Notes under the pieces: generated by a model
Database searches by the model: none
What the model was told of the DNA's origin: nothing
What the model saw: only the letters and a program-made list of their open reading frames with translations
Assembly: GCA_905178155.1 (NCBI GenBank)
Contig: CAJINV010000010.1
Span: forward strand, 2,472,466-2,536,465
Direction: 5' to 3'
DNA: 64,000 bases
DNA from: Amoebophrya sp. A120
Lineage: Eukaryota > Protista > Dinoflagellata
Part shown: positions 8,440 through 64,000 of the stretch, one piece after another
How positions within the stretch are numbered: the first letter of the stretch is position 1
Layout of the letters: every line of letters begins with the position of its first letter
Translations under genes and position numbers: made by a program

Positions 8440-11018
8440 ATGGCCGACGCCTTCCGTCTTTTCCTGGAGTTTTGCTGTGCGAGCTTTCCGATTGTGCTGT
8501 TCTCCGCGCCCGTAACGGTGTTTTACGAGCAGAGATATGTCACGAAGCAGCCGAAGATCGACATGCCGCCCCTCCCGATTACCGGAATGATCATGCAGTG
8601 CGGGCTGTGGCTGCCGTTCTGCATTTTGAACGAGCTCCACGAGGGGACCATTCCGAACGTGTGGGGGGTCGTCGCCGGGGTCGCGTTTCTGGTGCTGTAC
8701 AAGAAGAATTACAAGTATGAGAGTGCTGCACAACTCCCCCGCCTCTCCCTCATTTGTATAGCATGAACGGCAATACAAGCGTCAGCAAGAGTGCCGGCTT
8801 TGCATGATAGATTTGCACAGGAGTGTGCGACTGTTTGGGAAGATTCCGGAGTTTGTCATGCATAATTAATAGTGACAGGAGGGACAGTCTGGAGTTGGTG
8901 TTTTGCATTAGAAATGAGAACGAGGGGGAGCTGTGCACTGTCATAACAGGCCGGAGGTGTACGGGAAGGAACTGTACTGGCAGACCATCGGCATCTTGGC
9001 GATTATTGCGAGGAAAAATCCTTCCTCCCCGTATTGAAAAGGACGTTTTTGATGCTGGATTGGTGTACACAAATCGACTTGTATTGCTAAAAGGCCAAGG
9101 GACATTGCTGTGACCACCTGAATTGCAGGCAATTTGTCATCAAGGTGTTTCCCGCTTCCACTCGCCTCCTGTCATGCGGAAGATGCAAGGCTTTCCCACG
9201 CCAGCCAGCACTACAGTCTGTCTTTTGTTCTAGCATGGCAACGTGGTAGCAAATCATGCGACACAAATCACCGCTTTAGTATGGGGAGAGGGGATTTTTC
9301 ATTTTGATAGCGATGATCTTTTCTTTACTCGTCGTCATGCTCCTCATCGCCGTCGACATTATGGATGACGAAGCGCAACAGGACCTGTTCGCAGCCACCG
9401 TCGGCTACATTGCCTGCTGCGTCTCCTGCGTGTTTCTCGCGCACCCGGTTATCGGGATGGTGCGGACCGTGTTGACGAAGAATGTGAACGTGATGGGCTC
9501 CTTCGCCATGAACCTGGTCGCGCTGCTCGCCGTATCAAATGCAAAAATGTCTGGGTCGGGGAGACTCCGAGATTTGTCATGCAGTTTTTCCAAGCTCCCT
9601 CACGTCTGGAATGCAGGGCCTAGCGTCACAGGTTCTGCAGCTCCTTGGTCATGCGTATTCTGGATGAGAAATGCACTCTCAGCATGGCCAGAAGTGGGCA
9701 CCTTTTGCACGTTTATGCATCACAGATCTTATTTGTAGTATCCGAAACACGCATCACAAGTTCGGATCCTTCCAGACCCAGACATTTTTGCATTTGATAC
9801 GCTGGCACAGTCTGGATCCTCAACGGGGCTTTGTTCGTACCCGACGAAGTGAAGGCGGTGATCATCACCCCCAACGCGTGCGCCGTCGTGTGCAACGTCG
9901 CGGCGTTTGTTGCCCGGTGGAAGCTGCGGAACGAAAAACCACTACCCGATTTATCAATTGCAAAAATGTCAGGGTCTGGGAAAATGCAAGATTTGTCATG
10001 CTTGTCTGGCATGACTGTTAATTCTGTGATGCTTAGGCGCAAAAAGATCTTCTTGCCTGTCATGCAAAAATGGAGCCTGCCATGCGGATTACGCAACACG
10101 CAGGAGCTCAAAAACTTGTCATGCGCGGTCACCGATTGCAGTGAGCTCATTGTTCACAGACTTGCATCACAAGTTTCTAGACCCAGACATTTTTGCATTT
10201 GATACGAATCTGTGTTCGACGAAAAGATTGCCGCGAGTGACAGTTTATCAACTGTAAAAATGTCTGGGTCTGGAAGAATCCAACTTGTCATGCTGATTTT
10301 GGATTCTAAAAAAATCTGTATTGCATGAGCAGCAAAGAGAGTCCAAGTTTTGCTACACGGACGGAGCATTTGTCATGCGGTATAGGCATCAGGAAGCCCT
10401 CACAAAATCTGTGATGCTAGGGCATGCATCACAGACATCAGGAGTCATGCAAAATGTGCATGACAAGCCTGGCAATCTTCCAGACCCAGACATTTTTACA
10501 TTTGATACAGTTGGCTTTTGAAGTGTCTCTTCGGGAAGGGAAAGGAGCAGGACGAGATGGCCAGCAGCGTCGTCGTGCCAACGGGGGAAGGAAGTACTAG
10601 GACAAGCGGAGGAAATAAAGTCGACGCGGGAATAGATTGTACAGCAACGGCTGTCGATCTGGAAGAAGTGGCGGAACAAGGAGGTGGTAATTCTTCAGCG
10701 TTGGGTGGAACGACTGCTCTCACGACAGCCAAGGAGGACAAGTCTTCTTCTGCGACCTTGTCAACGACGGCGGAGTATGAATTGCAAAGGTATCGCACTA
10801 ATAGAATTCTTGCAATACAAATTAGCTCAGCATGACAAATAGATTTTGTGATGCGGATTCAGCTCAAGAAAGAGATTTGTAATGCATCTAATGGAGCTCA
10901 AGAACGAACCAATTACTAGTACTACGAGTGCGATACTTTTGCAATTCATACGGAGCTCTACCAGCTATCCGCACCGGAGGAAGAATTGCAGGGAGGGGGC
11001 GACGAGGAGGCTTTGTAG
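8440..11018 (+). CDS. SWEET: SWEET/MtN3-family sugar transporter, 6 exons
   Basis: Two MtN3-like repeats: VLFSAPVTVF..TK....MPPLP....MQCGLW....IPNVWG and VFLAHPVIGMVRTVLTKNV..M....GTVWILNG....IITPNACA. Removing introners 8716-8945, 9004-9309, 9533-9799, 9952-10204, 10246-10507 and 10776-10950 (each plus one 5-bp TSD) gives one frame ending at TAG 11016-11018. That is six elements, so seven coding segments if all are introns. Confidence 0.85.
8716..8945. mobile_element. Introner family B (representative; ~210-250 bp)
   Basis: TIR TATGAGAGTGC(TGC)ACAACTCCCCC. Other copies: 36713-36961, 49235-49480, 58183-58390. Confidence 0.88.
9004..9309. mobile_element. Introner family C (representative; ~300-335 bp, ~13 copies)
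   Basis: TIR TATNNNNNGGAAAAATCCCCCCTCCCCATAT. Other starts: 23941, 27572, 29418, 37077, 38831, 43619, 45016, 45396, 47843, 50618, 52208, 53993. Confidence 0.9.
9533..9799. mobile_element. Introner family A (representative; ~250-295 bp, ~31 copies)
   Basis: TIR TATCAAATGCAAAAATGTCTGGGTCTGGAA. Other starts: 9952, 10246, 12744, 13645, 17286, 17907, 23122, 23410, 28685, 30394, 30749, 31237, 31679, 35727, 37848, 39248, 40272, 41265, 44018, 46831, 47143, 48846, 50996, 51452, 52617, 54360, 55603, 56692, 58529, 60619. Confidence 0.92.
10776..10950. mobile_element. Introner family D (representative; ~145-175 bp, 8 copies)
   Basis: TIR TATNNNNTGCAAAAGTATCG(T/C)ACTCGTA. Other starts: 19156, 31054, 40086, 44598, 46519, 51965, 63524. 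Confidence 0.9.
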
Positions 11019-11771
11019 GTGCTGCGGATTTGCAACTACAACTAGTACCTAGGGGAATCGACCAAAATAATTTTCATTGGAGAGCTGGAACTGGGTTGAA
11101 ATCCATTATTTTCCAACTAACTTGCTGGTGGATCTTGTGGTGTGCACTGCTCGCACTTGTGCACTGTTCGCACCGCAGTTCATCAATACGAACGTACATA
11201 AAGCTTTGTTTCGATTATTCTTGTACAGACATTTGAATGAATATCACAACATAGACCGCTACTAACTTTATCATTTTTTATTTTCGCTCGCAGGGAGAGG
11301 CTGGGAATGCAGCACCACCGGCCGACGGGCGCGGCATATGTAATTTTCATCTGCTACATACTTTTTTGGTCAACATCATCTCCACAGAAACATTTTCCGC
11401 GCACAGAAAGCGCCGGCTTAGACCTCGATAGAACTTGTACAGAAAGGTTTGGAATTATTGAAAACCAAAAACATAAAAAAGCGTAGTTCCCCTTTTTGAT
11501 GGATAATGGGACTACTTTTTCGTCGAGCTTTGTTCCCTCACTGCCCTGCAGCAGAAGGCATATTATTCGGACACCACAAGACGAGAGCGAGTTAAGACAA
11601 TTCTACGCCTAGTGCTAGGTACTTACCAATACAGGCACAGAGAAGTCAAAACATCAAGCCTGGCCGAAACCAAAATCAAAGAAGATGCGGTAAAATCCCA
11701 AGTCACTTACTTCCGCGCGCGGCGCGCCTTGGCGCTGCTGGGTTGTCTTTGCCTCTGCCGAGTTTGTCAGA

Positions 11772-15394: not shown

Positions 15395-15502
15395 ATGGCG
15401 AAGATGATGAAGATGATGAAGGCCGCCGAGCCGGCCCCGGCCATGAAGAAGATGATGAAGATGTCCATGAAGATGAAGATGATGTCCATGAAGAAGAAGT
15501 AA
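15395..15502 (+). CDS. 35-aa Met/Lys-rich basic micro-protein, copy 1 (MAKMMKMMKAAEPAPAMKKMMKMSMKMKMMSMKKK)
   Basis: ATG in CAAAATGG context. The coding sequence is identical to 25641-25748 while the flanks diverge. The composition resembles the MK-rich N-termini of dinoflagellate DVNP nucleoproteins (inference only). Confidence 0.7.
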   Translation: MAKMMKMMKAAEPAPAMKKMMKMSMKMKMMSMKKK

Positions 15503-15654: not shown

Positions 15655-15863
15655 TATTGAAAGAAAAAAGTTCGTCACGATCACTAAGGCGCATTTTTGC
15701 AATACAAAATTTTCTGTCATGCGTAACAATGCATCACAGCCAAACTTTACAAGGGATTTCCCTAGTGTTTCTGCAATACAAGGAAAAGCTGTGAAGATGC
15801 TAAATGAATTTGTAATGCAAAGCCTGCAAGTTAGTGACTGTGGCAAACTTTTTTCTCTCCATA
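15655..15863. mobile_element. Introner-type element in the probable 3' UTR of micro-ORF copy 1
   Basis: TAT...ATA ends and TCAAC TSD. Its TIR is related to the element at ~36033-36303. It is absent from copy 2. Confidence 0.75.
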
Positions 15864-16700: not shown

Positions 16701-17215
16701 CATGCAGAGAAAATTTTGTCATGCAGAGCTCCCAAAACTTGGAGACTTGTGTTGCTAGATTCCCAACTTGACTATGGGAGGGGGATGTTTTTGTTTAGGA
16801 TAGAGGTTTTCTGTGTTCTGGAAGTTCGTGTTACGCATATACTCTTGCAGAGCAAAGAACAGTTTTTCTGCTTTTTGTCGGAGAGGAGAACGGTACTTTC
16901 GTACTCGCACGTCCTACCTCTGTAGTAACCTGTGTTTCTTTTTGAGGTTTTTACAGTATCGCCCAACCAGCTCTTTGAGTGGTGGAAATGCCAAGTGCAA
17001 TCTTTATATCCGCGGGCCGCGTGACGTTTCATTCTAGTCCACTTGGGCGGCCACTACTAACTTCTAGATCCAAAAGGCAAGGGCCGCAGTGTTTTGGTAG
17101 GCGTTTATTCCGCAGTGCAATTTTCAAAGATGTTTTGGTAGTCGGTGGGGGCCACGCGGGTAGTAGCGGTTTAATATTTATATTTTCGCCAAATCGAAAC
17201 AAAAGTTGAAAAGCC

Positions 17216-20200
17216 ATGACCCCAACCAACGTTGTTCTCTCCGACCACATCCGCTCCCTCGCGGACGTGAGGCGGGAGGCGAAAATATCAACTGTAAAAA
17301 TGTCTGGGTCTGGAAGATTCTGACACTTGTCATGCACGTTTTGCACGAGCCATGATGTCTGTGATGCATACCCTAGCAATGCAGATTTTCTGAGGGCTTC
17401 TTGATGCCTATTCCGCATGACAAATGCCTTCTCAGTGCAGCGAAAATTGCATTCCCTTTGGTACTCATGCAATACAGATTTTTTTTGGATTCCAAATGCA
17501 GCATCACAGGTTGCATTCTTCCAGACCCAGACATTTTTACATTTGATAGAAAAAGGCTTCCGGCGCGGTCTTCTGCTGGTGGGAGGAAGCGGACCGGGCG
17601 CAGCGATGGAAGAAGACGGGTGCTGCAACGGCGGAGCAGAAGAGCAGCGCCCGTACCAGTCGCTCGCGGGCGGTGGAAAAACAACACGCACGTCGTCGGG
17701 ACCCATCTTCTAGTATGGGTTCCAGGTGGAGATCGAAGGGACAGGGAGCGACCGCTCACGGTAGTACAACTACAGAGCCGCGGCCGAATAATGCAACACT
17801 TGCAGAACAAGGACCAGCGGCCACAAGGAGTGCTGCGTTTTCTCATCTAGAAGTCGAGCAAAGCGTGTTAACTGCAGGATCGTCGCACGACGAAAGCTCG
17901 GCGTCTTATGCATTGCAAATATGTGAAGGTCTGGGTGTGCTGGAAGAAGTAGATTGCATGGCTTGTCATGCATAGTTTACTTGGCATGGACAAAAGGGTC
18001 GTTTAGACTACGGGTTTTAGTATCTTCACAAGTGTCTTAAGAAGGCTCGTCGCTGCCTAGCCTACACGAGACCTTTCGCTCTCGTACGATGACAATAAAA
18101 AGTGGGCGCGTGCAGCTCCTTATTTTGCTGGTCATGCAATACAGCTCTCTATTGTCGAGCTGATCTAGCATCACAGACCCAGCAGACATTTTTGCACCGG
18201 ATACGTCTCTGAACGAAGCAATCCAGGAGCTGATCAGAAATGAGGAGCACAACGAGTCGGAACTTGTCATGCAGACCGAGGAAGAAGATAAACATAAACC
18301 TACTCATCTACCAAACAACATCTTCCTCGATGGCAATTGCAATACAAGTTCAACATCTTTCGCTCTCGTGGACCACGCTGGACAGCAAGACTTTTCCTCC
18401 TCGTACCAAATCGACAGCGCTCTGAACGAGTCCAGGATCGATTTTGCGCTGTTGAAAAAGACGATTGCCGAGGAGCGGGAGCGAAAGACGAAGTGTGGCG
18501 CGGCCAGTCAGGTACTAGTCCGACTTCCGGCGGACGGTGAAGAAAATCAGCGGGCCAGCACAAAGATGCCATCAGCTGCAACTACTTCGTCTAGTACAAC
18601 GGCGGGTCGTGTAGCGGATGCAGCGACTGATGGTGGTACTGGCTTCAACGACGCCAGTGAAAACATGGAAAGCTTATTTCCAAAAAAGTTCATCTCGTCC
18701 GCGGTTGTTCACAGCACGGCGTTTGAACATGTTGGCTCGGGACCGCAGGAGCTCCGTGCGGAGGAAGGCAGACGGACAGGAAGAGAGGCTGCGCCTGTGC
18801 TGGTCCAGGGTATTCAGAAGAACATCAACGCAGTAGAACAACAAGGAGTGAAGATGAGAAGCGCGAATGCTTTATCGACTTCATCGTCGTCTTCGCAAGT
18901 GGCCAAAACAAGCGGCGAGACCTCCACCACGACGACAGGCGCGCTGAACAAAGTGTCTGCAACGAAATTGTCCCGGCGCAGAAGCAGTAGCTCTGCGGAG
19001 GAGCAGATAAATGCGACCCCATCTCCTGCAGCTTATTCGCAGCGCGGAATGCCACAACATGCGGCAAAGAATGCACAACAAATAACTTCTACACAGGGAC
19101 AGGACTCTAGACCCGCCACTCTGAAAAACGAGACGGATCGGCAGCAGATTCTGGATATCCTGTGCAAAAGTATCGTACTCGTATTGCAGTCATGCATTAG
19201 CATTACAAATCTTTTTCTTGAGGTAAATCAGCACTACAAATTTTTTTTCTCATGCTGAGGAAATTTGTAATGCATTTATATACACGAGTACGATACTTTT
19301 GCAATTCATACTGGACACCCTCGGCGCTCTGAACTGGTCGGAAAAGCAGGCTGGCGCATCTGCCGGCACGACGAAAAGAGATCTAGTTCATCTTCCCGAG
19401 GAAAGTAAAAACAACAAAAAATTTTACAACCCCAACAACTACGACGCGGTCGTTGATCATTATAACCCGCTCAGGTGTTACAATCTCAAACGTTACAACA
19501 GAGTCTGAGATTTGTCTTGCATCATGGGCATGATCTAGCCAACTCTCATGGGGTTGCGCATGACAAGTTCCGGAGCTCCAAACCCCACTACAATCTGGGA
19601 AAATTTGTATTGCAAAAGGTGGAACGCTGTGCGAGTCTGTCATGCCCATCATGCAAGACAAACTCCAGACTCTATTGTAACGTTTGAGATTGTAACGTTT
19701 GAGCAAGTCATAATCATGATGACAGTTTTCTCAACCTGTCCCCCGCACGGCCGGCGATGAGGACGAACGGAGGGCGGCTTGTAGTACAGCATGATCGCCA
19801 GATGAATAACGGCACCTGGTTATCCTATGTAAAAATGTCCCCACACCATAGTCAATATGGGAAGTCTGCAACACAAATCCCCAAGTTTTTGGGGTTCTGC
19901 ATGACAAAAGTTTCCATCTGCAGTGTAGTACTGGCTGGCAAGGAAAGCCGCACGACAAAGCCATTTTCTCGTCCTGTTTACAGCATTACAAATTCCAAAA
20001 GACGACTGGAAATGCCTCTCATGGAAGAGCGCATTACAAATCTTCCTGGCATTGCGCATTTGCATGACAACGGTGGGGTGGGGACGTTTTTACACAGGAT
20101 ACTGGTCCCCTCGCTACGAGGAAACGCCGACTTTGAAGCAACAGTGGGTTTTACCAGCGTATGAACAGCAGATACCGGCGGAACTAGTTTCATCCAGCGA

Positions 20201-20993
20201 GAGTCGTAACAGCATGTTGAACCATGACTGTCGTTGGCCGCAGGTTGGTCGGGCGAATGTGGATACTAAACAAGAAGTAGTCTCTCGTCATCTCGACGCT
20301 GGCCAACGGCGCGTTGCTGTCCAGGAGCAAGAGGAGGCGGAGGTAGACAAGGAGCGGCGGTTTCTTGGTCGGAATTTTGACGGTGTTGATAACTCCTATC
20401 AACAAGAAGAAGTGCTGCACTACGATAAGAAGAAGAGCCACTTCTTCCCTGCGGGGTGTAACAAAGGTGCGGCGGATCATCATGATGATGTTGATTCTCA
20501 CCTTGGTCTACTCCCTGAAGATGTAGGTGGCTGCAATCTTGAAGATGTTCCACCCACCTGGCCCTCGTCCACCTCCGTAGTCTACTTCCGGAAGCATCGG
20601 CCCCAGCCGAAAATCGCGAATTTCCTGGCGACCAGTTTCGATTATGAGAATCTGCAGGGAGGTGGAGGAGATGCGGTTTTTGCGGGTAGTACTTCTAGGT
20701 TCTTGCCGGAAGAAGATATTAAAGATGAAATGTACAGGGGTCGTCCTGCCGGACCTCCGGGCTTCGACAACTACTACAGCGGACATGATCACGACGTGAA
20801 CAAAAACAGGGTCGCAATTATGACCAGGGAAGTCGACCGGGGAGGGAGTTACAGTCAAGCAAATGAAGACCCTTTCACCTATGATTACCGTGAGGACCAC
20901 ATTAATGCAACGGAAATTATAGGAACTACTCGATCATCCCAAAAACTATCGCACTTTCACGATATTTTAGAGCGGCACGGGAGGCATAAGTAA
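17216..20993 (+). CDS. Hypothetical low-complexity protein, 6 exons
   Basis: The frame is continuous after removing 17286-17548 (GAAAA), 17907-18203 (CGTCT), 19156-19310 (CTGGA), 19461-19712 (ATCAT) and 19821-20101 (CTGGT). This joins the ORFs at 17673, 18269, 19299, 19757 and 20052. Confidence 0.75.
19461..19712. mobile_element. Introner family K (single copy)
   Basis: ~45-bp TIR containing GTTACAATCTCAAACGTTACAA and an ATCAT TSD. Its removal restores the frame. Confidence 0.8.
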
Positions 20994-24400: not shown

Positions 24401-24471
24401 AAAAGAAACAACATGACTCGATTGACAGTGTTGAGCAGAACTTTATCGCGAAAGAAAACGACAACTTGTAA
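21460..24471 (+). CDS. Secreted uncharacterised protein with motifs GFYTDPNH / GSDD..FW / NF..KGAP / ITWQDGNAW, 7 exons
   Basis: Signal-peptide-like N-terminus. The frame is continuous after removing 21613-22668 (CGCTG), 22746-23076 (ACGAC), 23122-23374 (GGACA), 23410-23679 (GGTCA), 23726-23899 (CCGAT) and 23941-24262 (TCACC). Stop TAA 24469-24471. The motifs recall an uncharacterised algal/protist family (from memory, not searched). Confidence 0.8.
21663..22541. mobile_element. MITE with TA TSD (Tc1/mariner-like) nested in an introner; carries five 40-bp palindromes
   Basis: TA|CTCG..ACCGTAATTAGCGGCTAAG at the left end and CTTTAGCCGCTTATTACGGT..CGAG|TA at the right. Palindromes CATAAGTTCCC-N18-GGGAACTTATG start at 21898, 21957, 22065, 22124 and 22226. 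Confidence 0.7.
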
Positions 24472-25748: not shown

Positions 25749-26472
25749 GTGGCCAACGGACGGGCTGCTCGCTTTTCTGGACGAAATGACATCAATCTAA
25801 AATATGTCATCAACATCTAGCGCTCCCGGTTGTAGTGTAAGTCTGCAGCGGTCGAGCGAATGCTAGAATGAAAACTTTTCCAATGGCACGACATTGACTC
25901 ATTTATGTAGGCACGCTACAGAATGACGTTGTTGCAAGTGACCTGAAGAAAAGAACAAGAAAACTACTACGTCAGCACAGTGCTGTGTCAGCGCGCGGCA
26001 GCGTTGTAGTCCTGTGGAAGAACAACGACTCAGAGACTGGTGACAAACAAGCTCCTTGCCGCATTTTGTTCGTTTTGTTTCTTCAAGGAGGATCCCAAAT
26101 TGAAATTTCATATCAGCGTGATTTTACTAGTAGCTGCGCGTCGGCGGCATCAGGTCTATAGCTGTTTCTTTTTTGGTCGAAGGATGGAAGATCTGCAACA
26201 CTGCACACCGTTCAGAATCGATTCGTGCCGTTTGAGGCGAGCTCAAAAGGAGAAATTTTTACACACTGTGCGAAAAAAAATATCGCAATAAATGGTTCTT
26301 ATTTTCGTAAATTCATTCGCGAATGTCGGACCGGGCTTTGGAGTGCAAACGCTTGTATGGCAGGCTTTGGAGTGCAAACGCTTGTATGGCAAAACATTTT
26401 CTGGTTGTATGCTTCAAGACTATAAGTAGATATTAGTACAAGATCTCACTAGGGCTCGCGGCGCTTTTCGGT

Positions 26473-51300: not shown

Positions 51301-54300
51301 AAAACTGGCCTCGCCGCTTTTGCCTGGGAGGCCGCCGGCCAGAGTGCCAGATTCGCAAGTATGCAGGGCGAGCCTATGACGTGGCGAGGAATCAGTTTCT
51401 GCTAGCGGGGGAGGGACGCGTGGTGGATATGACAACCGGGCAAACTCGTTGTATGCATTGCAAATATAATGTCTGGGTCTGGAAACTTGTGATGCAAATC
51501 TACGAATTGTGGGCGCGCCGCAATATGCAGCCCAGCTTGACAAGTTTTTGCGCTGCTGTGTGTTTCGTTTTTCGCATGAAAAACTGCGTTTTTGCATGAC
51601 AGGCAGGAGGCCCTTTTCCTGCTCACGCATCACAGATCTAAGACTCATGCCAGACAAGCATGACAAGCTTGCATTCTTCCAGACCCAGACATTTTTGCAG
51701 TTGATGCGTTACCGTCCAGAGCAATATGACGCTCGCCGAGATTATGGCCAGCGTGCCGCTCCTTCCACCGGCTACCGTCCAGAGCAATATGACGTTCGCC
51801 GGGATGGCCAGCGTGCCGCTCCTTCCACCGGCCACCTTCCATCCCCCGGAAGAACGGGGGCCACGGTGACAAGATTTAATTTTCTCCGAGATAACGAACG
51901 TGACACAGGTACTAGTACGAGCTCGGAGAGGTCGTGGACAACAACATCAACGACCACCGTAGTTTATGCACTGCAAAAGTATCTTCGTGCTCGTACTAAT
52001 TGCAAACATGCATGACAAATCGCCTTCCCGACCTGTAACAGCATTTTACAAATTTTATCTGTCATGCTAAAGGAAATTTGTAAATGCAATTACTATACTA
52101 GTGCGATGTTTTTGCACTTCATATGCTTCCGCCAGGAGGAGAAGACCCCGACGTTATCAAAGAGGAGAAGACCCCTGATTCCGATCAAGAGGAGAGGAGC
52201 TCCTCGCTATCAAAGTGAAAAAAGCCCCTCCCCATATTGAAACGGAGATTTCCACTGTTGCTGGATTTATTGTGTACACAAATGATCCGGGCTGTATTTT
52301 TGCAGCAAGCGCTTGCGGGCATTTCCTGAGCCTGATTAGGTATGCAAAGAGGGCTAGCACGCAGGCATGACAGACAGGTTTGCAGTAGGCAAAATTAGCG
52401 CATGTTGACAGCTTGGCGGTGGAATGCGCCACACGGGTCGTTCCATTTGCCTCATAAATACAAGACAAAGCTGATTTGCGGCCACAAAGCTGATTTGCGG
52501 CCACAAATCCGCCTCGAAAATCTCCATTGTGAGCATGGGGATGGGGGATTTTTTCTCACGATTTTGTCCTGTTGCGCCCTTTTGTCACGATGCCGGCATT
52601 CGACTCGGAGCGGTATTATGAAATGCAAAAATGTTTGCGAATCTGGAACAAAGCAAGTTGTCATGCTAAATCTGAATCATGTAAAAATCTGTGTTGCATG
52701 ATTACAACCAAAAGCTGATGTCCACTTTTGACCTAATCGAAAGGCAGTTTATTCTCATGCAGGATTATAGGCATGATATTTTTGATAGAACTCTCACAGA
52801 ATCTGTCATGCTCTACTGTCCTACATACCAGACCTCATGGGTGGTCATGTAAAATCTGCATGACAAGTCTGGCACTTCTCTTCCAGACCCAGACATTTTT
52901 GCATTTGATAGGTATGGGCCGTCCTCCTCGTCCTCCTCGTTTCCGCTCTGGCAATCGGGGGCGTGCTGGTTTGCCTCTACTGTAGGGCGTGCTGCTTTGC
53001 CACCACTGGTGAAAGAGCAGCGGGGCAGGAGCTGCGACCGGGGCTACAAGGAAGAAGTCCTGTTGGAAGTAGTTCCCCCGCTACTCGAGAAGACCTTCAC
53101 GGCGCAGGTGGAGCAGCTGCGCCCCCGGCTGCGGGCAGGATAGTCAATTCATCGGAGACCACTGCAGCGGCACCAGTAGGAGCAAAAAAGAAGGGCGCGG
53201 CCGTGGGAAAGGAAATTCTAGGACGTCGGGGGGTTGATGATGATGACCAGCGGCAGAAAAATATCCTGAGTAAAAACGTCCCCACCCCATAGTCAAGGTG
53301 GGGATTTCGCAACACAAACCTGGAAGTTTTGGGACTCACGCATCACAAATAGCAGTCCCTAGTGTAGTGCAGGTTAGCAAGGACACACGCATCACAAATC
53401 CATCTGCTTATCCTGCTTACAGCATTACAAATGCCAAAACACGACTAGAAACGCCTCTCATGGAGATACGCATTACAAATGTTCCTGCCATTGCAAATCT
53501 GCATCACAACTCTGGTGTGGGGACGTTTTTCCTCAGGATACAGAAAAAGGAGTACCGCCGGAAGGTGGCGGAGAGGATTTTCCGCACGCCGTATTACCGT
53601 GAAAAATGCCCCCACCCCCAAAGTTGCAATAATTTGTGATGCGAAGTTTCCAAATGAAAACTTTTTGTCATGCTCATGCATGAGAGGAATATGAATCTAA
53701 TCTTTGTGATGCAGAGCCTAGGCGTATATAGCATTGCTTGCATGATGAAAAGCCCCGCTCTTGCTCGGGTCTGTTGCAATACAAATTTTCGCTATTCACG
53801 ATTGGAAATCTGTGATGCTGCTAGATGCAAGAGGGCGAGTGTTTCTCTTGGAAAGGTTTGCAATACAAATGTTCTCAAGTTGGGGTTGGGGGCGTTTTTC
53901 ATTGTGATACGCCGGGCGAGCGCCAGCAGCGACAAGAGGAAAAGCGGGCGCAAACCATGCAGGCCGCCCTGCACCGAATAGCGCGTGAAAATTATCAGAA
54001 GGAAAAATCCCTCCTCTCCATGTCGAGACGAAGTTTCTGATGCTGGATCTCCGTACACAAATGCGCACTGTCTTTCAAGACGGCATCGCAGCCAGATCCT
54101 CAGCCTAGGCAGGGGCGTGTGGGTCTAGTTGCTTAGCATTGCAAACGGCTGTCCTCTAGGCCCAGCAGCATGCCAAATCGCTTCCATAATGGCGCGGAGG
54201 CCTCTGCGCTTGTCTTCTCGCAAGACAGACGTGATCTGTGGTCTCAAATCAGCAAGACAAATTTTTGGAAGCGTGCTTGTTCGATATGGGGAAGAGGGAT

Positions 54301-57300
54301 TGTTCCACTCAATAAAAGTCCGAACCTGATCCACCGCTTCAACAAGGAGCAGCGCCGAGTATGGAATGCAAATATGTCTGGGTCTGGAAGGTTGCAACTT
54401 GTGATGCTGTCTTTGGAAGGTAGAAAAAAATCTGTATTGCATGACCAGCAAGAGGAGTGCAGTTTGTGCTACGCGGAGTGGGCGTTTCTCATGCGGAATA
54501 CGCATCAGAAGACCCGTTAAAAAATCTGTGATGCTAGGTCATGCATTGCAGGCATCACGGGTTATGCAAAATATGCGTGACAATGACAAAACTGGCAATC
54601 TTCCAGACCCAGATACTTTTGCACTTGATACCGGGTGCACAAAAGCAACTATCCGGGGGGCGGCATGCATGTGCAAGCAGATGTGGAACGGGGGGCGGCG
54701 GCGGCCCAGACATCACCAGACACGACAGCGAAAAGGGTAGTAGGTGCGGCGCGACCGATATCCTGAGCAAAAATGTCCCCACACCAGAGTCAAGATGGTA
54801 AATCTGCTAGACAAATCAACCAGCTTTGGTTGTTTCGCATGACAATTTTTCCCTCGTAGTAGGGTGCTGTTTGAGGTAGTTCAGCAGCGTCACAGATCTA
54901 GTGCATCATGCTGATTGGAGCATAACAAACTCCAAGACACGACTAGAGAATGCTTCTTATGGGGCTCCGCATGCGAAACATTTCCAGCATGCGACTTTGC
55001 ATTACAGCTATGGGGACGTTTTTGAATACGATAACCGAGGAGCCCCGTACTGGACCGCGACCAGTGGCTATCCAAGAAAAAAACGTTGGTACTGTAAATT
55101 TGTAATGCGCAGCGTGCAAATTGATTGCGCCTGTCATGCTGAGCCTGCATAGTAGGGCCCATTCAAGGGCGTCTCGCGTAGTATCTGCGCATGACAGGTT
55201 TTGCTCTCATGCCACACAGATTTGTAATGCTGTTCCTCCAAAAAAGTTACACCTACAGTCTTTTCTTCTTGGATAGTGGCTACTGATGCAAGAAACTGAG
55301 GTATGCAGAGAAAAAAGCGTTACAGTTACACACATAGTCTATGCAGACCAAGCAACAGAGACACGGTCTGTCATGCGCAAAATGCTTTCGAGTCTCATTT
55401 CATACGTGGTTTCCCTTGTGCTCTCCTTCTCTGCATGGCAAGTTTTCTCTCTCCTGCAGAAAAAGTTTGTGTTGCTGAATCGACAACAAATGTGTACTTA
55501 ACTGTAACACTTTTTTCGTGCGATATGAGGCCGCGCCGCCCCGGTGGGGGACCCCGCTGAGAAATTATCGACCACACCACGCTGGTGTTCCTGTTGCGCC
55601 ACTATCAAATGCAAAAGTGTCTGGGTCTGGAAACTTGTGATGCTGGGTGGCGTCTCATGATGAGGCCACAAATGCTGGCTCAGCATGACAAGTTTCTGAG
55701 CTTCTAGGTGCTGCCTATTCTGCATGACAAACTGCGTTTCTGCATCACAGAAAAGCGGAGCTCTTGGGTAACGTGCATGCCAGATTTAAGAGTCACGCCA
55801 GACAAGCACGACAAACATGCATTCTTCCAGACCCAGACATTTTTGCACTTGATAGCCACACATGCAGCGCCATCAAATGCCGCTGCAGGGTCAACATCAA
55901 AGTCAGCTCCTGCGTACCCGCGGTGAGAATTTGGTCGTGGTGGATACGATATCAAGTGCGCCGGACGCGTTGGTGGTCGACGCGCTTGGTGGCGGGGGGG
56001 TATTAGATGGCATGTTGGAGAACAAGTACGAGCAGAACCCCAACTATGGAAGCGTCAGAATCGAAATCGTCAAAGTTGAAATAGTTTGTCATGCATAAAA
56101 TGCAACCCACAAAATGAAAATGCCTGTCTTGCAGAGTAGGCAAGGGAGGCAGATCGTAAGCCTGTTCTTGCGGGGTAGAAATAGAGTTGCTGAAGTAGCA
56201 TGACAAAAGGCATCTTCCTTAGTACCCAAACAGCATCACCAACTGGATTTCGGTTCTACCCAAATTTGTCATTCGCCACTTGAAATAAACTAGGCGCCAA
56301 CTCCTGGTATCCGTTTTATGCATGGCAAACTATTTCAACTTTGACGATTTCGATCCTGACACTCCCATACCAACCGGACATTTGTCGAGCTTGAGGACGG
56401 CACAATAACGGGCGCAGCGGACATATCCAGGAAAAAAAGTGTGTAAGTGTAACTTTCTTTGAGAAACAGCATCACAAATTTGCTCTACATGACAGAGAAA
56501 AGCTGTCATGCGTGGCTCTATGAAAAGAGGACTTCATGGCTGTCTGGCATGACAGGTGTAACTCTGTTGCATGTTCTGCAATACAAATTCACACTTACAC
56601 AGTTTTTTTCTTGCATAGGACAAGGATCTCCAGAACAAGGATCTCCAGGACTTCCTGCGCGACGAGATGGGGTTGGGGGTTGATGTCACCGTATCAAATG
56701 TAAAAGTCCCTGGATGTCTGGAAGAGTCATGCTGTTTTTGCATGACACAGAAGGTCGTCTAGCATGGAAGCTCTAGCATCACAGGGTTCGAGAAGCTTCC
56801 GCAATGCCGAACCCGCATGAGAAATCCCCCATTTATTTGGTGACAGAAAGTCGGCAGCTTTTGCTACGTATGCATGAGAGATTTTTCTGTGTTCTAAAAT
56901 GCGCATCACAAGTTCGGACACTTCCAGACATCCAGACACTTTTGCATTTCATACACCGTGGCGGGAAGAACGAACGAGATCATGAAGACCACGACGCACA
57001 AGAGTAGAAGTACAACTTCAACTTCATCTTCCAATCGGCGGCCGCTGCAGGAAACCGCCGCTGCAGGTTTGGGATTGGAAAGCAAAGATGACGCTTTTGG
57101 CGTTTCCATGGGACCCAAAGCGAAGGCGAATTTTTCAATACCTGTGGTATCCCATTTGAAAACGTTTGAACACGTCGTGTCAAACGACACCAGAGTTGTT
57201 TTCAGATTCAGTTCTTGTGCATCAGAGATCCAGAATTTATCAGACCACGACCCTCACGCATGACGATTTATCAATTTATTTCGAGCGAGCATTTGTAAAC

Positions 57301-60300
57301 TGCTAGTGCAAGAAGTGCAGGTTATTAACTGGGGAGGAGTACACCAGCCGCATTGTGCAAATCCATCTGCTTTTTAACCTTAGTATTATCCTGACTACAG
57401 CATAATTTACAAGTGACAAAACACGACTAGAAATATTGCCTCCTATGGGAACAATGCGGATATTTGTGTTTCTGTAGAAGCTAAAATAAAAATGAAAATC
57501 TGCATGGCAACAACTGTGAGGACTTCGCGAGAATGCGTGGGGTCTCCCTCCTTTGCCCGAAGAGGTTTGAGAAGTGAAAGCCGGCCGAGTTCTCACTCCC
57601 TTCCTCGAAGGAAGCTGTTCGGAAAGCGCAGTGAAAAATCGTCGAGCTTTCGTTCCGTTTCTCGAAGCTCTTCGGGAAAGGAAACGGAGCCTCAACGAGT
57701 TTCCCGAAAAACTATCGGGAACGAAATGGAATCTCGCTGACTTTTCACTTCGGGCGAAAACTCCGCGAGCTTTCCTTTCGCTTACCGAGGGGCTTCGGGC
57801 TCCCGAAGACCTTCGACGGTCTCAAGTGATAAGTCAGCGACTTTCAAATCAACCTTCCCGAAGATATGAAAGTCAGTGCCTGAAGCTCTTCGGGCTCCCA
57901 CGCACCTTCTTCGGGAGCTTTAGAAGCACCTTCTGTGATGTTCGGGAGCGCGAATAGAAATGGTCGGGGCTTTTCACTTTTTCCACACACAGACGGAGCG
58001 CGCAACGTCGCTGACTTTCACTCTGGCTGCCCCCGAAGGTAAAAAGCGGGCACCTCGAGACCCGCTCGCCCCACCACAGCTCGCGGGCGAAGTCATTCTT
58101 GCTGCCACCCCTCGAAAGCCTTCGAAAAAGCTCTCCGGCCTTCTAAAAAAAAGCCTCCGGTGCGGCGAAATGGTCCTTCAGCTATGAAAGTGCACAACTC
58201 CCCCTGCCCCTCATTTGCATGGCCATGGGATGAACAGCAATACAAACACCAGCACACGTGGAGCCTATGCATGACAAATTTATGCACCTCGTGTAGAAGT
58301 GCTTGTTGGGCTTCGAAAATTTGTCATGCAAACAGTGCCACAGAGATTTTGCATTGCAAATGAGAAGAGGGAGAGTTGTGCACTCTCATATCAACCCCGG
58401 AGACTTGACAAAAGTGGTGTTTTGTGATGTAGAGGAGGCTGCTGTTGTCGTAGCTGCCAGTGGCCTCGGCACGCTGGTCAAAATGTCTTCCCGCGTCACC
58501 AGTCGCGAAGACGGTGCTGCTCCGCCTTTATCAAATGCAAATATGTCTGGGTCTGGAAACTTGTGATGCTGGTTGAGAAAGACGAGGACGCCTCAATTGA
58601 CTTGCAAGCATGACAAGTTTTGGAGGTGCTACAGTCTTGGCTTTTCTGCATGACAAACTGAGCTTCTGCATGACAGGAAAGTGAAGATTTTGGGTAATGT
58701 GCATGACAGACTTGAGAGTCATGTCAGACAAGCATGACAAACCTCCATTCTTCCAGACCCAGACATTTTTGCAGTGCATAGCCTTGCTGATTATACAACT
58801 GTTGTGCCCCCGCCAGGGGTTGATGCGTTGTGCCAGCGCCGTTTGGCGTCGTCTGCAAGTGCGTTTGGTTCGCGACACTAAGCTGGGGCGACATCGATGA
58901 CAGGAGTGGTTGCTGTTGCTGCTGCTGCAATTGCGGTTGCATATTAATACTTCAAGTCGAGTGTGTGACGAGGATTTTGCTTCGAAGTCGAGTGTGTTGA
59001 CGCAGATCTATTCGATTCCGAATTTGCTTCGATGAGATAAGTATAAATAAAAGCCTACATGCTGATGAATTCAGCAGGACGAAAGTGATTGGGCTTACGT
59101 TCAGGCTCTTTCCTACCTCCTACGAGAATTAGGCGATCTTGTGAAGAGGTCGCGCTCGACGTGCTGTTGTGGTGCTGATTCTAAAAGAACTGGAGTGACA
59201 AAGAAAAATGGGAACAGAATGAGGTGTATAAGCTAAAAGAAAAATGAAAATCTGCATGGCAACAACTGTGGGGTCGTCGCTACTTTGCTCGACCACACCC
59301 GCCCGCCCTTGTCTCGGTCGCCTGGGTATGACAGGCGCGCAGATCCTAGCTGCCAGACATATGACGTTTCGCAACTGCTCGAACTCGCCAACGCATGCGC
59401 CGTCGTTGCGCGCCGTTGTTGTGGCGCCCTCGTGCGGCTCTGAATGCAGTTGGTATCGGTTTCACCTCAGCCCCTTGTGTGGTGTTGGCTGTGACTCCGC
59501 CTGCGGGGAAAATCAACACTCGCTCCTCGCGGACCTCCGCCTCCCTCACACGCGCGCATAACATCCGCGGCTCGCGGACCCCGCACATACGAGCGTGCGT
59601 GCAAAGGCTCGCACGAAATCGACGGCATGGGAGGCAGCCTGCTGCCGCAGCTGCTTGCCCATGATCTGCCCTGCGGGGGGGCTCGCGGCTGGCGCTGTCG
59701 CGTCCCCATGTGCATACTGCCTTGACGTGTCGCGGATACCAAGCGCAAATGCGGATAAAGAGGGCGGATAGCTGTAGCTAGCGCTTCGCCCATATCAGCC
59801 GCTTTATCGAGTCTCGTCGAGGGTGGAAATTAACTCGTAACCACCCACCCAAGCCGATGGCTTAACTCGCAAGCAACCAGATGGCGTTACGTTTCTGGGA
59901 GATCCGGGATCCGGGGACGAGCGGGGGGTGGGCGGGCGACGCGGACAGGCCAACCAGGCCAACTTCCCATCCACCCGGCCGGGTGGATGGGAAGTTGGCC
60001 TGCAACTTCTGGTGGGAGGTTTGTTACCCCACTCTATAAGCTAAAATAAGAATGAAAATCTGCATGGCAACAACTGTGGGGTCGTCGTGGGGACGTTTTT
60101 ACACAGGATGCGTGGGAGTGGGCGGCGCTGCTGCAGTGAGTACTTCTAAGAATGCCAAGAACGCTCCTAACCACGAGGGAGGTCCGCCGGCCGTTCGCGG
60201 GAGTAAGGAAGATACTAGCAGTGCTGGCGCCTCTTCTTCTTCGGCTTTTCCAGGGTTGAGTTCATACTCACAGCAGCAGAAATTCGATTCTGCCGAAGTA

Positions 60301-61733
60301 GATCCTGTCGCGCCTGAAGTTGATGTACTACACGGCATGAAGATCATCAGGAGCCCTAGTGCACTTCCGGAAGGTATGCAAGAAAAAAGTGTGTAAGTGT
60401 AAGTCTGTGATGCAGAAAATGCAAAACAGTTACACTTGTCATGCTGGACATGCATCAGAAGCTCTTTTTGTACGTGTTTTTACGTACTAGCCGCGCATAA
60501 CAGGAGGCTCTCTCTGTCATGCAGAGAAAACTGATGCTATTCCACCGAGAAAGTGACACTAACACAGTTTTTTTCTTGGATAGAAGGGAGCAGAGGGATA
60601 TTGACCCGCCCCCCACCATATCATGTGCAAAAATGTCGGGGTCTGGAAGGTTGCAGCTTGTGATGCTGTCTTTGGATTCCAAAAGAATCTGTATTGCATG
60701 ACTAGCAAAAGGCGTCCAGTTTATTGTGCTACACGGGGAGAGCATTTCTCATGCGGAATAAGCATCAGAAAGCCTTCTAAAGATCTGGGATGCTAGGGCA
60801 TGCATTACAGACATCATGGGTCATGCAAAATGAAAATATGCAAAAATACGCCCCCTCCTCGGGGGGGGTATAAATTCGGGCGCAATGACAAAAAGAGGCG
60901 GAACGCAGCGAGGAGAGTTGCCTCGCTGACGTTACCGACCCCAAAAAGATCCGTAGCGTAGACGTGCGCACATTGCGCGAGAGATCCAGTAAGCGTATTG
61001 GATGTCCCCCCTCTATTAGATTGTCGTCAAGGATAGTAGCCGATAGCTTTACTGCATTGCCGCCTTCGCGATATTTTTTAGCGGACCCCGCACAAGATCC
61101 CTCATGCGCTTCCCACTTAGTAAGAGTAACACTATGACTAACATTGCAAACACATAGACTCCCCTCGCTTCGGCACACCTCATCTGCCTAGTCGCCCCTA
61201 GGCAGGTGCAGGAATTTTCTGTGTGGGCTTTTTCTGATTAATTATTCCGACAGGGGCTGCGTCTTTTTTTTCTGCCTTGCCAGCAGAGTATGTATGAAAG
61301 GGGGGGGCTGACGGAAGTGGAGCGAGACCTTGGTGCTGGAGCAGGGGACAAGAGTGGAAATGGTACAAACAAAACAAAAGCACCAATATACCCGCGCCAT
61401 CTGCTTAACTGTGTGAATTATTGTGTCGGCCCGGTCCTGTTTAGTCGCAGGTCGGTGTCCGTGAGATCAGAATTCACATGTTAAGTAACGCACACCGGCT
61501 CCTAGATAAAAAAAAATGATGAATTTATATGCGAATGGGGCCCAATCAAAAAAAAAAATATGCATGACAAACCTGGCGATTTTCCAGACCCAGACATTTT
61601 TGCAGTTGATACGCCATCGCACCGGCCGCCCGCCCTGGCAGCACATGATTACTCCACGTCCGCCTTTTCGCCGCCGGCGACTGCCGAGGAATGGGAAAGG
61701 CTACAGATGCTTCGCGGGTACCAAGAGTATTGA
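36315..61733 (+). CDS. Very large putative type-I membrane protein with a duplicated extracellular domain; ~50 introner introns
   Basis: The frame was traced by eye across the introners from 36361 to 60619 and ends at TGA 61731-61733; a few junctions (37077, 51965, 52208) have degenerate TSDs. Hydrophobic N-terminal stretch AAAIFVIAFSAF. Internal repeat VYFNDTLASPK(E/D)W(E/Q)ELTVGALKAFLP...GYQVC...GFDC...AKC(A/S)EDLQVSKII occurs twice. TM LGAVWAVLLVLLVSALAIGGVLVCLYC (~52600-52985). The start may lie further upstream (elements at 35727 and ~36033). Confidence 0.7.
42072..42085 (+). other. Relic dinoflagellate spliced leader (3' 14 nt: CATTTTGGCTCAAG)
   Basis: Exact match to the 3' end of the conserved dinoSL (DCCGTAGCCATTTTGGCTCAAG), located at the left junction of an insertion. 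Confidence 0.75.
43153..43412. repeat. Minisatellite, ~21-bp period, core GTTGGCG(A/C)A
   Basis: About 12 copies of GTTGGCGAA/GTTGGCGCA at roughly 18-24 bp spacing. Confidence 0.8.
45973..46278. mobile_element. Introner family G (representative; ~305-325 bp)
   Basis: TIR TATGGAA(C/G)(T/C)GTCAG(G/A)ATCGAAAT. Other copies: 40570-40883, 41563-43582 (expanded by insertions), 56046-56369. Confidence 0.88.
47445..47759. mobile_element. Introner family H (representative; ~315 bp)
   Basis: TIR TATNNCNNTGAAAAA..CCCC. The second copy, 53592-53909, is in the opposite orientation. Confidence 0.8.
49735..50476 (+). mobile_element. Non-autonomous element (subterminal IR plus 3' hairpin) nested in E-family introner 49564-50589
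   Basis: IR GTAGTGAGGTC 49737-49747 / GACCTCACTAC 50429-50439 and hairpin CCGCCCCGGCGG 50442-50453. It shares the GCCATACCG...CGGTATGGC palindrome with the 32.8 kb element. Confidence 0.65.
58143..58942 (-). pseudogene. Captured 5' gene fragment (MQPQLQQQQQQPLL...) with two intact introners, antisense within an intron
   Basis: The minus-strand frame from ATG 58942 stays open across 58529-58780 (TSD GCCTT) and 58183-58390, then stops 11 codons later in unrelated repeat sequence. Confidence 0.5.
59280..60034. mobile_element. Insertion flanked by a 53-bp direct repeat, with a perfect 48-bp palindrome near its right end
   Basis: Direct repeat 59227-59279 / 60035-60087 (2 mismatches). Palindrome at 59955-60002. 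Confidence 0.7.
60843..61554. mobile_element. Insertion nested in A-family introner 60619-61611
   Basis: Flanked by an AAAATATGCA duplication. Hairpin CCCCCTCCTCGGGGG and a 9-bp IR (60869-60877/61521-61529). A-run at the right end. Confidence 0.55.
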
Positions 61734-63171: not shown

Positions 63172-63746
63172 ATGGATCCTACTAAGCGTGGCTACAAAAA
63201 CGCGCTGGACGCGTCCTACACTGGCGGTACGTCCCAGCTATCGTGGGGAAATTTGAAACTGTCGCAGTCTCACCTTGTGATGCGGAGCGTGGTCCTTGAG
63301 ACAGTTTTTTGTCATGCTTGTTCTCGACAGGTATAAGAATGAAATGGACACTTTAAAATAAGTACTAAGTACCTGTTTTATTCATCTCTTGCATCTGACG
63401 CTGAAGGAAATGAATAATAAAATCTGTAATGCTGAACCTGCATAAGGTTTGAGACTGAGGCAGTTTTTTCGTACGATGTCCGCCCCTGTTCGATTTCAAA
63501 GCGTATTCCAACAAGACGGCACATATCAACTGCAAAAGTATCGTACTCGTATAAATGCATTACAAATTTCCGCAGCATGAGAAATAAAATTTGTAATGCG
63601 GATTTGCGTTCAGAAAAAAATTTGTAATGCATGATTGCAATACGAGCACGATAGTACTTTAGCACAGGATACCACACCCAGTCGGGTACAGGTCGTCGTC
63701 GCAAAGCGGGACCACAAGAAATTCGAACAAAACTTCGCCCGAGTTG
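63172..63746 (+). CDS. 5' part of a hypothetical gene running off the window
   Basis: MDPTKRGYKNALDASYTGGTSQPLFDFKAYSNKTAHPVGYRSSSQSGTTRNSNKTSPEL is in frame after removing 63239-63478 and 63524-63671. The next introner starts at 63747. The strand is not certain. Confidence 0.45.
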
Positions 63747-64000
63747 TATCCTGATTAAAAACTACGTCCCCACGACCCCAGAGTCAAGTTGTCAAATCTG
63801 CTACACAAATCAGCCAGCTTTGGTTGTTTCGCATGACAAGTTTGGGTTCGTAGTGTAGTAGTCCTTTTTAGCTGGTGGAGCCGCATGACAAATTGGCTAC
63901 CTGATCCTGATTCCAGCATGACAAGAAAATACCAGATAGCACCACAGTAGAAAATGGCTGTCATTGGGCTCTGCATGAGAAACATTTTCAGCATGCAGAT

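What the first reader, a model, noticed from the sequence alone, without database searches (positions are those of the whole stretch)
8716..64000. About 90 TAT...ATA transposon-derived introns from ~10 families obey one excision rule, often without any possible GT-AG
Seen: nearly every interruption in six genes is a short element with long TIRs, TAT/ATA termini and a 5-bp TSD. Deleting the element plus one TSD copy restores the frame at almost every junction traced, including within recognisable SWEET and DUF4116 domains. TSDs such as CTCTT (29418), TCACC (23941) and CCTCT (40570) contain no G, so no register gives a GT/GC donor or AG acceptor. Known: non-canonical introners with inverted and direct repeats are reported in Amoebophrya, but their removal mechanism is, to my knowledge, unresolved. 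Inference: families with dissimilar sequences share one end geometry, which suggests one transposase system and a removal machinery that reads the end-paired stem plus duplicated flank rather than splice-site sequence.
Basis: partly seen in the sequence, partly recalled or inferred. Interest (0 to 1): 0.85.

Follow-up and report, generated by a model that had tools for sequence, protein, structure and literature searches.

The report
Amoebophrya hairpin introns, fixed cut register
About 89 small transposons that interrupt six genes of the marine parasite Amoebophrya are odd introns already described in this organism; new here is that they appear to be cut out at one fixed distance from their paired ends, likely by an altered splicing machine that ignores the usual GT-AG signals.

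Summary
There are 89 TAT...ATA elements, 79 with a 5-bp duplication perfect or one letter off. Removing element plus 5 nt opens all 84 genic junctions, and 81 of 89 cannot be GT/GC-AG in any register. The window is Amoebophrya sp. A120 and these are its published introner elements (Farhat 2021), so the phenomenon is known.

Not found in the papers searched:
(1) A fixed register. At 16 of 16 informative junctions (contigs of one probable RNA run; public protein models) the cut fits 1 nt before TAT and 4 nt after ATA. TAT is then intron +2..+4, like the GTA(T) donors of six canonical introns in related DNA. Farhat called the position variable, but their Table S4 lists only NT donors for A120.
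(2) The duplicated flank is not needed: junctions with 2-4 mismatches are still joined.
(3) All but one short element carry an 8-bp motif, often 31-33 bp apart.

No transposase was found. The catalyst is inferred: altered spliceosome about 0.55, separate cut-and-ligate system about 0.3. This scan noted similar hairpin introns in other dinoflagellate genomes.

The parts
8440..11018 (+). SWEET/MtN3 sugar-transporter gene, 351 aa, with 6 elements: 8716-8945, 9004-9309, 9533-9799, 9952-10204, 10246-10507, 10776-10950
   Evidence: Reconstruction identical (351/351) to public protein P0001, Amoebophrya sp. A120; PF03083
11694..14641 (+). Gene 2, 711-aa open frame, 3 elements: 12744-13009, 13645-13896, 14190-14468
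   Evidence: an X4 contig joins 12738 to 13010 with no letters between (record 11)
17210..20993 (+). Gene 3, 836-aa open frame, 5 elements: 17286-17548, 17907-18203, 19156-19310, 19461-19712, 19821-20101
   Evidence: an X4 piece starts at 20102
21460..24471 (+). Gene 4, about 190 aa with a hydrophobic N-terminus, 6 elements: 21613-22668 (nested insert), 22746-23076, 23122-23374, 23410-23679, 23726-23899, 23941-24262
   Evidence: frame only, no transcript join seen
26437..32484 (+). Gene 5 (or two genes): frames of 459 and 590 aa with one stop at 28651-28653; DUF4116 exon 28941-29408; 11 elements: 27572-27873, 27918-28126, 28140-28450, 28685-28933, 29418-29738, 30394-30655, 30749-31002, 31054-31198, 31237-31492, 31679-31930, 32038-32316
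   Evidence: frame only
35723..61733 (+). Gene 6, one 1896-codon open frame across 53 elements (35727 to 60619-61611), exons of 11-717 nt
   Evidence: 1084 residues identical to public protein P0002 across 30 elements; 13 further elements joined in X4 contigs
37077..37411 (+). Element without a duplicated flank (4 of 5 letters differ), still removed with 5 nt
   Evidence: P0002 fits registers 4 or 5 only
39658..39981 (+). Element with a position-5 mismatch; the right copy is kept
   Evidence: P0002 fits registers 0-4, not 5
44018..44552 (+). Nested pair: 44336-44552 sits in the right end of 44018-44334; the inner one would have to be removed first
   Evidence: frame and P0002 recovered only with inner register 4 or 5
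49564..50589 (+). 1026-nt element with nested insert and mismatches at positions 3 and 5; left 3 and right 5 are kept. The public model P0002 stops here, the X4 contig continues
   Evidence: Joint 49561>50593, 1 ambiguous letter; register 5 gives a stop
51452..51706 (+). Element with a position-5 mismatch; the right copy is kept
   Evidence: Joint 51446>51707, record positions 413>414
53262..54630 (+). Register-informative elements 53262-53540 (left 1 and 3 kept), 53993-54314 and 54360-54630 (left 4 kept)
   Evidence: Joints 53259>53544, 53991>54319, 54358>54635
41563..43582 (.). 2020-nt element with a nested GC-rich insert and short tandem repeats; no Pfam hit in its 3 longest ORFs
   Evidence: removed in P0002
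57148..60110 (.). 2963-nt element holding two complete short elements (58183-58390, 58529-58780); no Pfam hit in the 5 ORFs tested
   Evidence: removal keeps the gene 6 frame
15655..15863 (.). Element outside the six frames
63239..63671 (.). Two elements outside the six frames (63239-63478, 63524-63671); a further left end at 63747

Best explanation
These are the introner elements of Amoebophrya sp. A120, short inverted-repeat insertions with a 5-bp flanking duplication that are likely cut out of the RNA 1 nt before the terminal TAT and 4 nt after the terminal ATA, likely by an altered U2-type spliceosome. Shown: elements in DNA contigs, exact joins in contigs of a probable RNA run, one register fitting 16 of 16 informative junctions, no preference for G at +1 or AG at the end. 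Inferred: an unidentified DDE-type transposase inserts them with a 5-bp stagger and binds the repeated internal 8-bp motif; in the transcript the TIRs pair; TAT supplies donor positions +2..+4; the stem rather than G+1/AG sets the 3' cut. Because 1 + 4 equals the TSD length, any insertion in either orientation restores the coding sequence exactly. Odds by step: identity with the published elements 0.97, RNA-level removal 0.9, fixed register 0.8, spliceosome as catalyst about 0.55.
For: Identity: P0001 and P0002 are named Amoebophrya sp. A120 and match 100%; ends are TAT + 7 nt + A-run as in Farhat section 11. Removal: X4 contigs join across 14 elements, each skip being element + 5; record coordinates leave no room for extra letters. 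X1 contigs run through exon/element borders at depth 26-35. Register: position 4 or lower comes from the left copy and position 5 from the right at 8716, 48846 (contig piece ends), 49564, 51452, 53262, 53993, 54360 (joints), and 8716, 9952, 37077, 37495, 39248, 39658, 40272, 44336, 46831, 47445, 48846 (public proteins). Chance of one common register under independent random registers: 0.07 for the 7 contig junctions, 0.006 for 13 junctions. Farhat Table S4: all 9 predominant A120 non-canonical pairs start GT, CT, AT or TT. For the spliceosome: six canonical introns in an Rpb1 gene of related DNA all start GTA, three GTAT, none has G at +5; U1 is undetected in A25/A120 but found in the canonical-intron strain from Karlodinium; Fritillaria is a precedent. 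Stems fold strongly (z -8.6 and -6.3), and 9 of 10 families occur in both orientations.
Against: No lariat, branch point or snRNA was tested. +1 is evenly spread (AT 23, CT 23, GT 22, TT 21) and AG ends only 8 of 89; likewise G 32 of 99 and AG 9 of 99 in related loci. No spliceosome this indifferent is known to me, and old A120 introns stay GT-AG, which suits a second machine equally well. +5 is mostly C (50 of 86). TAT may simply be the transposase end. The joins come from one run (X4), only guessed to be RNA, contigs at depth about 5-28. X3, X5 and X6 showed no exon joins in the listed rows, and raw-read runs X10 and X11 covered no junction. Register 5 is excluded by only three junctions. 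The public models may rest on related RNA data, so they are not fully independent, and aligner habits could shape Table S4. No transposase was found.
Confidence: 0.55

Rival explanations
1. Same elements and same fixed register, but removal is by a separate RNA endonuclease plus ligase that measures from the end-paired stem, as suspected for Euglena nonconventional introns, and releases circles.
For: Complete indifference to +1, -1 and -2; old introns remain GT-AG; the 3' overhang is 3 nt longer than the 5' one, like Euglena's N3 / N5-6; Euglena introns leave as circles (review).
Against: Of six possible registers the one used is the only one that puts the TIR's T at +2 and A at +3, matching the canonical GTA(T) donors in related DNA. 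U1 is missing in just the strains with these introns. The Euglena signature (N3CDG, exon purine) is not met.
Confidence: 0.3
2. The direct repeat itself drives the skip (the first reader's 'stem plus duplicated flank', polymerase hopping, or a reverse-transcriptase template-switch artefact).
For: 79 of 89 flanks are perfect or one letter off; strong hairpins flanked by short repeats are known to cause template switching (recalled).
Against: Joins occur with only 1-2 ambiguous letters (49564, 53262, 53993, 54360) and without a repeat (37077). One register fits all 16 junctions. An in vitro artefact cannot explain open frames over 53 mostly frame-shifting inserts or 29/29 identity across Rpb1 junctions.
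Confidence: 0.07
3. The elements are excised from DNA in one life stage, like ciliate internal eliminated sequences.
For: X4 is only guessed to be RNA; contigs drop rare variants; only 15 of 2170 joints were listed.
Against: X1 contigs cross the borders unchanged at single-copy depth; X4 depth varies over 1000-fold between genes and its exons are identical to the window; Farhat validated the introns with RNA-seq.
Confidence: 0.05
4. Ordinary spliceosomal removal through cryptic GT-AG sites away from the ends.
For: 8 of 89 can be read as GT/GC-AG in some register.
Against: Every listed exon join skips element + 5 exactly, with non-canonical ends, and both public proteins match the exact reconstruction.
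Confidence: 0.02

Closest known systems
Introner elements / non-canonical introns of Amoebophrya sp. A120 (Farhat et al. 2021, PMC7789003; abstract, sections 10-12 and 16, supplement part 2 and rows of Tables S4, S5, S7 read; figures not visible)
   Same: Same genome; IR starts TAT + 7 nt + A-run; 3-5-nt direct repeats (Fig. S19 legend: 5 bp); about 240 nt; RNA-supported; 29,850 copies; hairpin proposed to join the exons; U1 undetected.
   Different: The paper calls the splice position variable or unknown relative to the hairpin and sees no splice signature. Here one register fits 16 of 16 junctions, the duplication is a fixed 5 bp and dispensable, and a shared internal motif is seen.
A120 introner families in Gozashti et al. 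2025 (PMC12130899; passages, 19 of 58 A120 rows of supplement file 8; files 13-14 not searched)
   Same: Most rows seen are classed TIR DNA, unknown superfamily, mostly non-canonical splice sites; one TIR family has Copia/Gypsy-like homology.
   Different: TSD calls in the rows seen vary from 2 to 5 or are missing; no fixed register or internal motif in what I saw.
Euglena nonconventional introns (PMC12501133, passages; review PMC11282704, section 6)
   Same: TIR stem closes the intron, non-canonical ends, slidable repeats, longer 3' than 5' overhang, coexistence with GT-AG introns.
   Different: Signature N3CDG...CHG N5-6|R versus N1-TAT...ATA-N4 with no exon purine bias; circles shown there, nothing tested here.
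Fritillaria borealis non-canonical introns (review PMC11282704; bioRxiv 10.1101/2025.08.15.670264, abstract only)
   Same: MITE-derived introns with TIR and TSD, removed by an altered U2 spliceosome, while old introns stay GT-AG.
   Different: Those keep preferred ends (AG-AC, AG-AT); here +1, -2 and -1 are free.
Micromonas and Aureococcus introners (review PMC11282704, passages; PMC9860276, passages)
   Same: Non-autonomous TIR DNA transposons that become introns, one site taken from the TSD.
   Different: They need GT/GC-AG formed by element and TSD; these do not.

Membership tests
Amoebophrya A120 introner elements (Farhat 2021) | Occurs in the A120 genome | tested here: met
   P0001 and P0002, named Amoebophrya sp. 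A120, are 100% identical to window frames
Amoebophrya A120 introner elements (Farhat 2021) | IR starts TAT, seven variable letters, at least three A | tested here: met
   TAT in 87 of 89; A at positions 11-13 in 73, 78, 78 of 86
Amoebophrya A120 introner elements (Farhat 2021) | Direct repeat of 3-5 nt at the borders | tested here: met
   5 bp, perfect in 60 of 89 and one off in 19
Amoebophrya A120 introner elements (Farhat 2021) | Repeated, in families | tested here: met
   10 multi-member clusters and 7 singletons among 86
Amoebophrya A120 introner elements (Farhat 2021) | Absent from transcripts, with non-canonical ends | tested here: met
   14 elements joined across in X4 contigs (run only guessed to be RNA); 36 absent from two public proteins
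Non-autonomous TIR DNA transposon (MITE) | TIRs, fixed-length TSD, no coding capacity, both orientations | tested here: met
Non-autonomous TIR DNA transposon (MITE) | Cognate autonomous element with a transposase | tested here: inconclusive
U2-type spliceosomal intron | GT/GC...AG ends | tested here: not met
   4 of 89 at the fitted register, 8 of 89 in any register
U2-type spliceosomal intron | U at +2 and purine at +3 of the donor | tested here: met
   T at +2 and A at +3 in 89 of 89 at the fitted register
U2-type spliceosomal intron | Branch point, lariat, dependence on snRNAs | not testable with these tools
   Needs lariat sequencing or inhibition
Euglena nonconventional intron | End-paired stem with non-canonical ends | tested here: met
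   (2 elements folded)
Euglena nonconventional intron | N3CDG...CHG N5-6|R signature | tested here: not met
   N1-TAT...ATA-N4; first exon letter A22 C21 G22 T21
Euglena nonconventional intron | Released as full-length circle | not testable with these tools
   Contigs only
DNA-excised element (ciliate IES-like) | Element-free DNA in the expressing nucleus | tested here: inconclusive
   X1 contigs keep the elements; rare or stage-specific alleles would be missed

The most novel reading that the evidence does not exclude
Amoebophrya has a sequence-agnostic intron-removal mode in which a transposon's own paired ends act as a ruler (cut at -1 and +4), matched to the 5-bp stagger of one transposase whose binding sites lie three helical turns apart in all families. 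Any insertion into any exon, in either orientation, is then erased exactly from the mRNA, by a spliceosome that needs only U+2/A+3 or by a new enzyme.
Probability: 0.6. Interest if true: 0.75.

Novelty: already known. Interest (0 to 1): 0.5.

Why it matters
The elements are known, but how they are removed is an open question, and the published view is that the cut position is variable. A fixed register turns it into testable predictions: where the lariat branch or circle junction must lie, that TAT is read as donor +2..+4, and that the flank can be changed freely while the stem ends cannot. It explains why tens of thousands of copies are tolerated in exons. It also gives a simple rule for annotation: the public model P0002 stops at the element at 49564, where the transcript contig and the frame run on for about 770 codons. 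The shared, regularly spaced motif gives a handle for finding the missing transposase.

Tried and rejected
Position-4 mismatch bias: 10 of 19 single mismatches in the window fall at TSD position 4 (chi-square p 0.008), but with double mismatches p is 0.37. It did not replicate in related loci (unoriented 18/13/8/9/11; oriented 3/3/0/4/6). Rejected as chance.

Selection towards GT or AG at insertion sites: none seen.

Transposase: no Pfam hit in 9 ORFs of the nested inserts or in 6 of the other 7 unspliced window ORFs tested; no transposase family in 40 of 126 long ORFs of the loci; the longest TSD-matched TIR pair in the loci was 972 nt. The TIR pattern had 0 matches in viral contigs. Rfam: 0 matches in the window.

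No whole genome is held. No RNA holder on record was listed. Raw-read RNA runs X10 and X11 lay only on repeats and a short gene. X3, X5 and X6 gave no exon joins in the listed rows. Uncovered parts prove nothing.

A one-letter insertion near the end of one X4 contig breaks the long frame and is taken as a contig error. Junctions 9533 and 47143 are synonymous and uninformative in the proteins. The Rpb1 gene had no mismatched exonic TSD, so it could not test the register. The Rpb1 junction test printed results for 2 of 4 elements. The species of the metagenome loci was not established: best Rpb1 hit 86%, unnamed.

A bulge-helix-bulge model (recalled) was set aside because the flanks are identical, not complementary. 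The internal motif as a branch site was set aside because it occurs on both strands at regular spacing and pairs poorly with the recalled U2 sequence.
Full report
Observation. A strict scan, a library-guided scan for ends and manual closing of orphans gave 89 paired elements in 8716-63671, covering 53% of 8400-64000. 87 start TAT and 81 end ATA. The 5-bp flanks are perfect in 60, one off in 19, two off in 6 and more in 4. Five shuffled windows gave no TIR pair with a perfect flank, against 50 in the real window. The window catalogue started from a TSD-demanding scan, so I repeated the test without that demand on related DNA. One exact TIR pattern fetched 142 loci (552 kb) from metagenome contigs; the 77 rows shown all came from one assembly. 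380 elements were paired by their ends alone and 296 have perfect 5-bp flanks; among those under 450 nt no other length above 3 occurs more than twice.

Frames. Removing element + 5 nt opens all 84 genic junctions in six + strand genes, although 64 of 89 skips are not multiples of three. Gene 6 becomes one 1896-codon frame across 53 elements, including a nested pair and inserts of 1-3 kb. Random offsets never came near (max 796 against 1284 aa on the tested part). In an Rpb1 gene of the related loci +5 gives 29 of 29 identity to a homolog, +2 or +8 only 15-16, at the two junctions that printed. 81 of 89 elements cannot be GT/GC-AG in any register.

Identity. Two window exons hit only proteins named Amoebophrya sp. 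A120. My reconstructions equal them at 351 of 351 and 1084 of 1084 residues. Farhat et al. 2021 (PMC7789003) describe for A120 29,850 introner elements whose IRs start TAT + 7 nt + A-run, with 3-5-nt direct repeats, a 5-bp example, RNA-seq support and an undetected U1. The elements are therefore known. [quoted passage not shown]

Transcript evidence. X1 contigs cross exon/element borders unchanged at depth 26-35. Contigs of X4, a run only guessed to be RNA, join across 14 elements: 12744 and 49235, 49564, 50618, 50996, 51452, 53262, 53592, 53993, 54360, 54759, 55069, 55302, 56045. Each skip is element + 5. Several joints are labelled 'between: not known', but the record coordinates add up exactly (52+81+20+62 = 215 letters before the first listed piece of record 11; gaps of 42 and 40 in record 12). 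Only 15 joints were listed per call (2155 and 4 more hidden). X3, X5 and X6 showed no exon joins in the listed rows, and X10 and X11 covered no junction.

Register. Where the two flank copies differ, the joined sequence shows which copy is kept. In X4, left positions up to 4 are kept at 8716 and 48846 (inferred from where the listed piece ends) and at 49564, 53262, 53993 and 54360; right position 5 is kept at 49564 and 51452. The public proteins add 9952, 37077, 37495, 39248, 39658, 40272, 44336, 46831 and 47445 and agree at 8716 and 48846; 9533 and 47143 are silent. All 16 fit one register only: intron = N + TAT...ATA + NNNN. Eight junctions exclude registers 0-3, three exclude register 5, and register 5 also creates a stop at 49564. 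Chance under independent random registers is 0.07 for the seven contig junctions and 0.006 for the 13 that I put in the second test (44336, 46831 and 47445 were left out). Farhat's Table S4 lists nine predominant A120 pairs, all with T second and any first letter. This is what the register predicts, although aligner choice could contribute.

What the rule reads. The duplication is dispensable: 49564 and 53262 (two mismatches) and 37077 (four) are removed at the same distances. There is no pull towards G at +1 or AG at the end. Nine of ten families occur in both orientations, so the signal lies in the symmetric ends, and the two elements folded form long stems. At this register TAT is +2..+4. 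Six canonical introns in the related Rpb1 gene start GTAATT, GTATAA, GTATAG, GTATAA, GTACAA and GTAGAA and end CAG, so the elements mimic the local donor core except for G+1. From general knowledge (recalled, not from a call), +2 and +3 are read by U6/U2 in the catalytic core, while +1, -1 and -2 mainly dock the 3' site. U1 is undetected in A25/A120 but was found in the canonical-intron strain from Karlodinium. I therefore favour an altered spliceosome in which the stem delivers the 3' site (0.55) over a Euglena-like separate system (0.3). Neither was tested directly.

Shared internal motif. TGT[ACG][AT]TGC or its complement occurs 307 times in 27.9 kb of elements and 27 times in 27.7 kb outside, many of those in elements recognised later. 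81 of 82 short elements carry it. There are 289 sites against 10.5 expected, and same-orientation spacing peaks at 31-33 bp (66 of 262 pairs), in 11 of 17 clusters. In the related loci there are 1383 sites in 372 elements, with 302 of 731 neighbours 31-33 bp apart; five canonical introns have none. About three helical turns, on both strands, suggests a DNA-binding protein, likely the transposase (inference). It supports one mobilising system for dissimilar families. No transposase was found. Gozashti et al. 2025 mention an A120 TIR family with Copia/Gypsy-like homology, a lead I could not test.

Literature. Four full-text searches turned up no paper stating a fixed register or this motif. I could not see figures (Farhat Fig. 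3, S19-S25 may already hint at the register). I read 19 of 58 A120 rows of one Gozashti table and not its files 13-14, bioRxiv supplements are closed, and Roy et al. 2023 was seen only as a listing. Earlier notes of this scan report hairpin-bounded non-canonical introns in other dinoflagellate genomes (unchecked); none were listed for this genome.

Verdict. Real, and already known as a class in this genome. The additions are a probable fixed 1+4 register, independence from the duplicated flank and a shared spaced motif. They make the open question of the removal mechanism directly testable. Interest 0.5.

Noticed in passing
window 15397-15504 and 25642-25749: Two copies (98% over 155 nt with upstream DNA) of a tiny frame for a 35-residue Met/Lys-rich basic peptide. 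X4 depth there is 1200-2300, far above neighbouring genes, and X11 reads carry related versions. It may be a small chromatin-type protein (guess).
   Followed up: no
window 49564 and P0002: The public model ends by reading into the 1026-nt element, while an X4 contig joins across it and the frame continues to 61733, so the gene appears split in the annotation.
   Followed up: partly
window 32752-33791 and 34406-35473: Two inserts of about 1 kb, each flanked by a long direct repeat (43 bp perfect; 69 bp at 97%); the first has its own inverted ends. They differ from the TAT elements.
   Followed up: no
window 53254-53261 and 53541-53548: The flanks of element 53262 share 8 letters rather than 5, yet the contig join removes only element + 5.
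   Followed up: partly
window 16038-16076, 16810-16848 and 16700-16802: A 39-bp exact duplication beside a right-half element with no left end; an X4 contig of a paralog (27 differences) lies on 16167-16698.
   Followed up: no
window 28590-28653: Single stop between two in-frame ORFs of gene 5, at the end of a pyrimidine-rich stretch ending AG: possibly a short canonical intron, or two genes.
   Followed up: no
window 4084-7440: Uninterrupted 1119-codon frame with a weak F-box-like hit and no elements, next to densely invaded genes.
   Followed up: partly
window 200-700, 21860-22300, 43090-43410, 2700-3560: Tandem or near-tandem repeat blocks; two of them lie inside long elements (21613-22668, 41563-43582).
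   Followed up: no
loci; window elements: Element lengths cluster near 150, 210, 255 and 300-320 nt.
   Followed up: no
L049-L051: An Rpb1 gene with four exonic elements, six GT-AG introns, and one element nested inside a GT-AG intron.
   Followed up: yes
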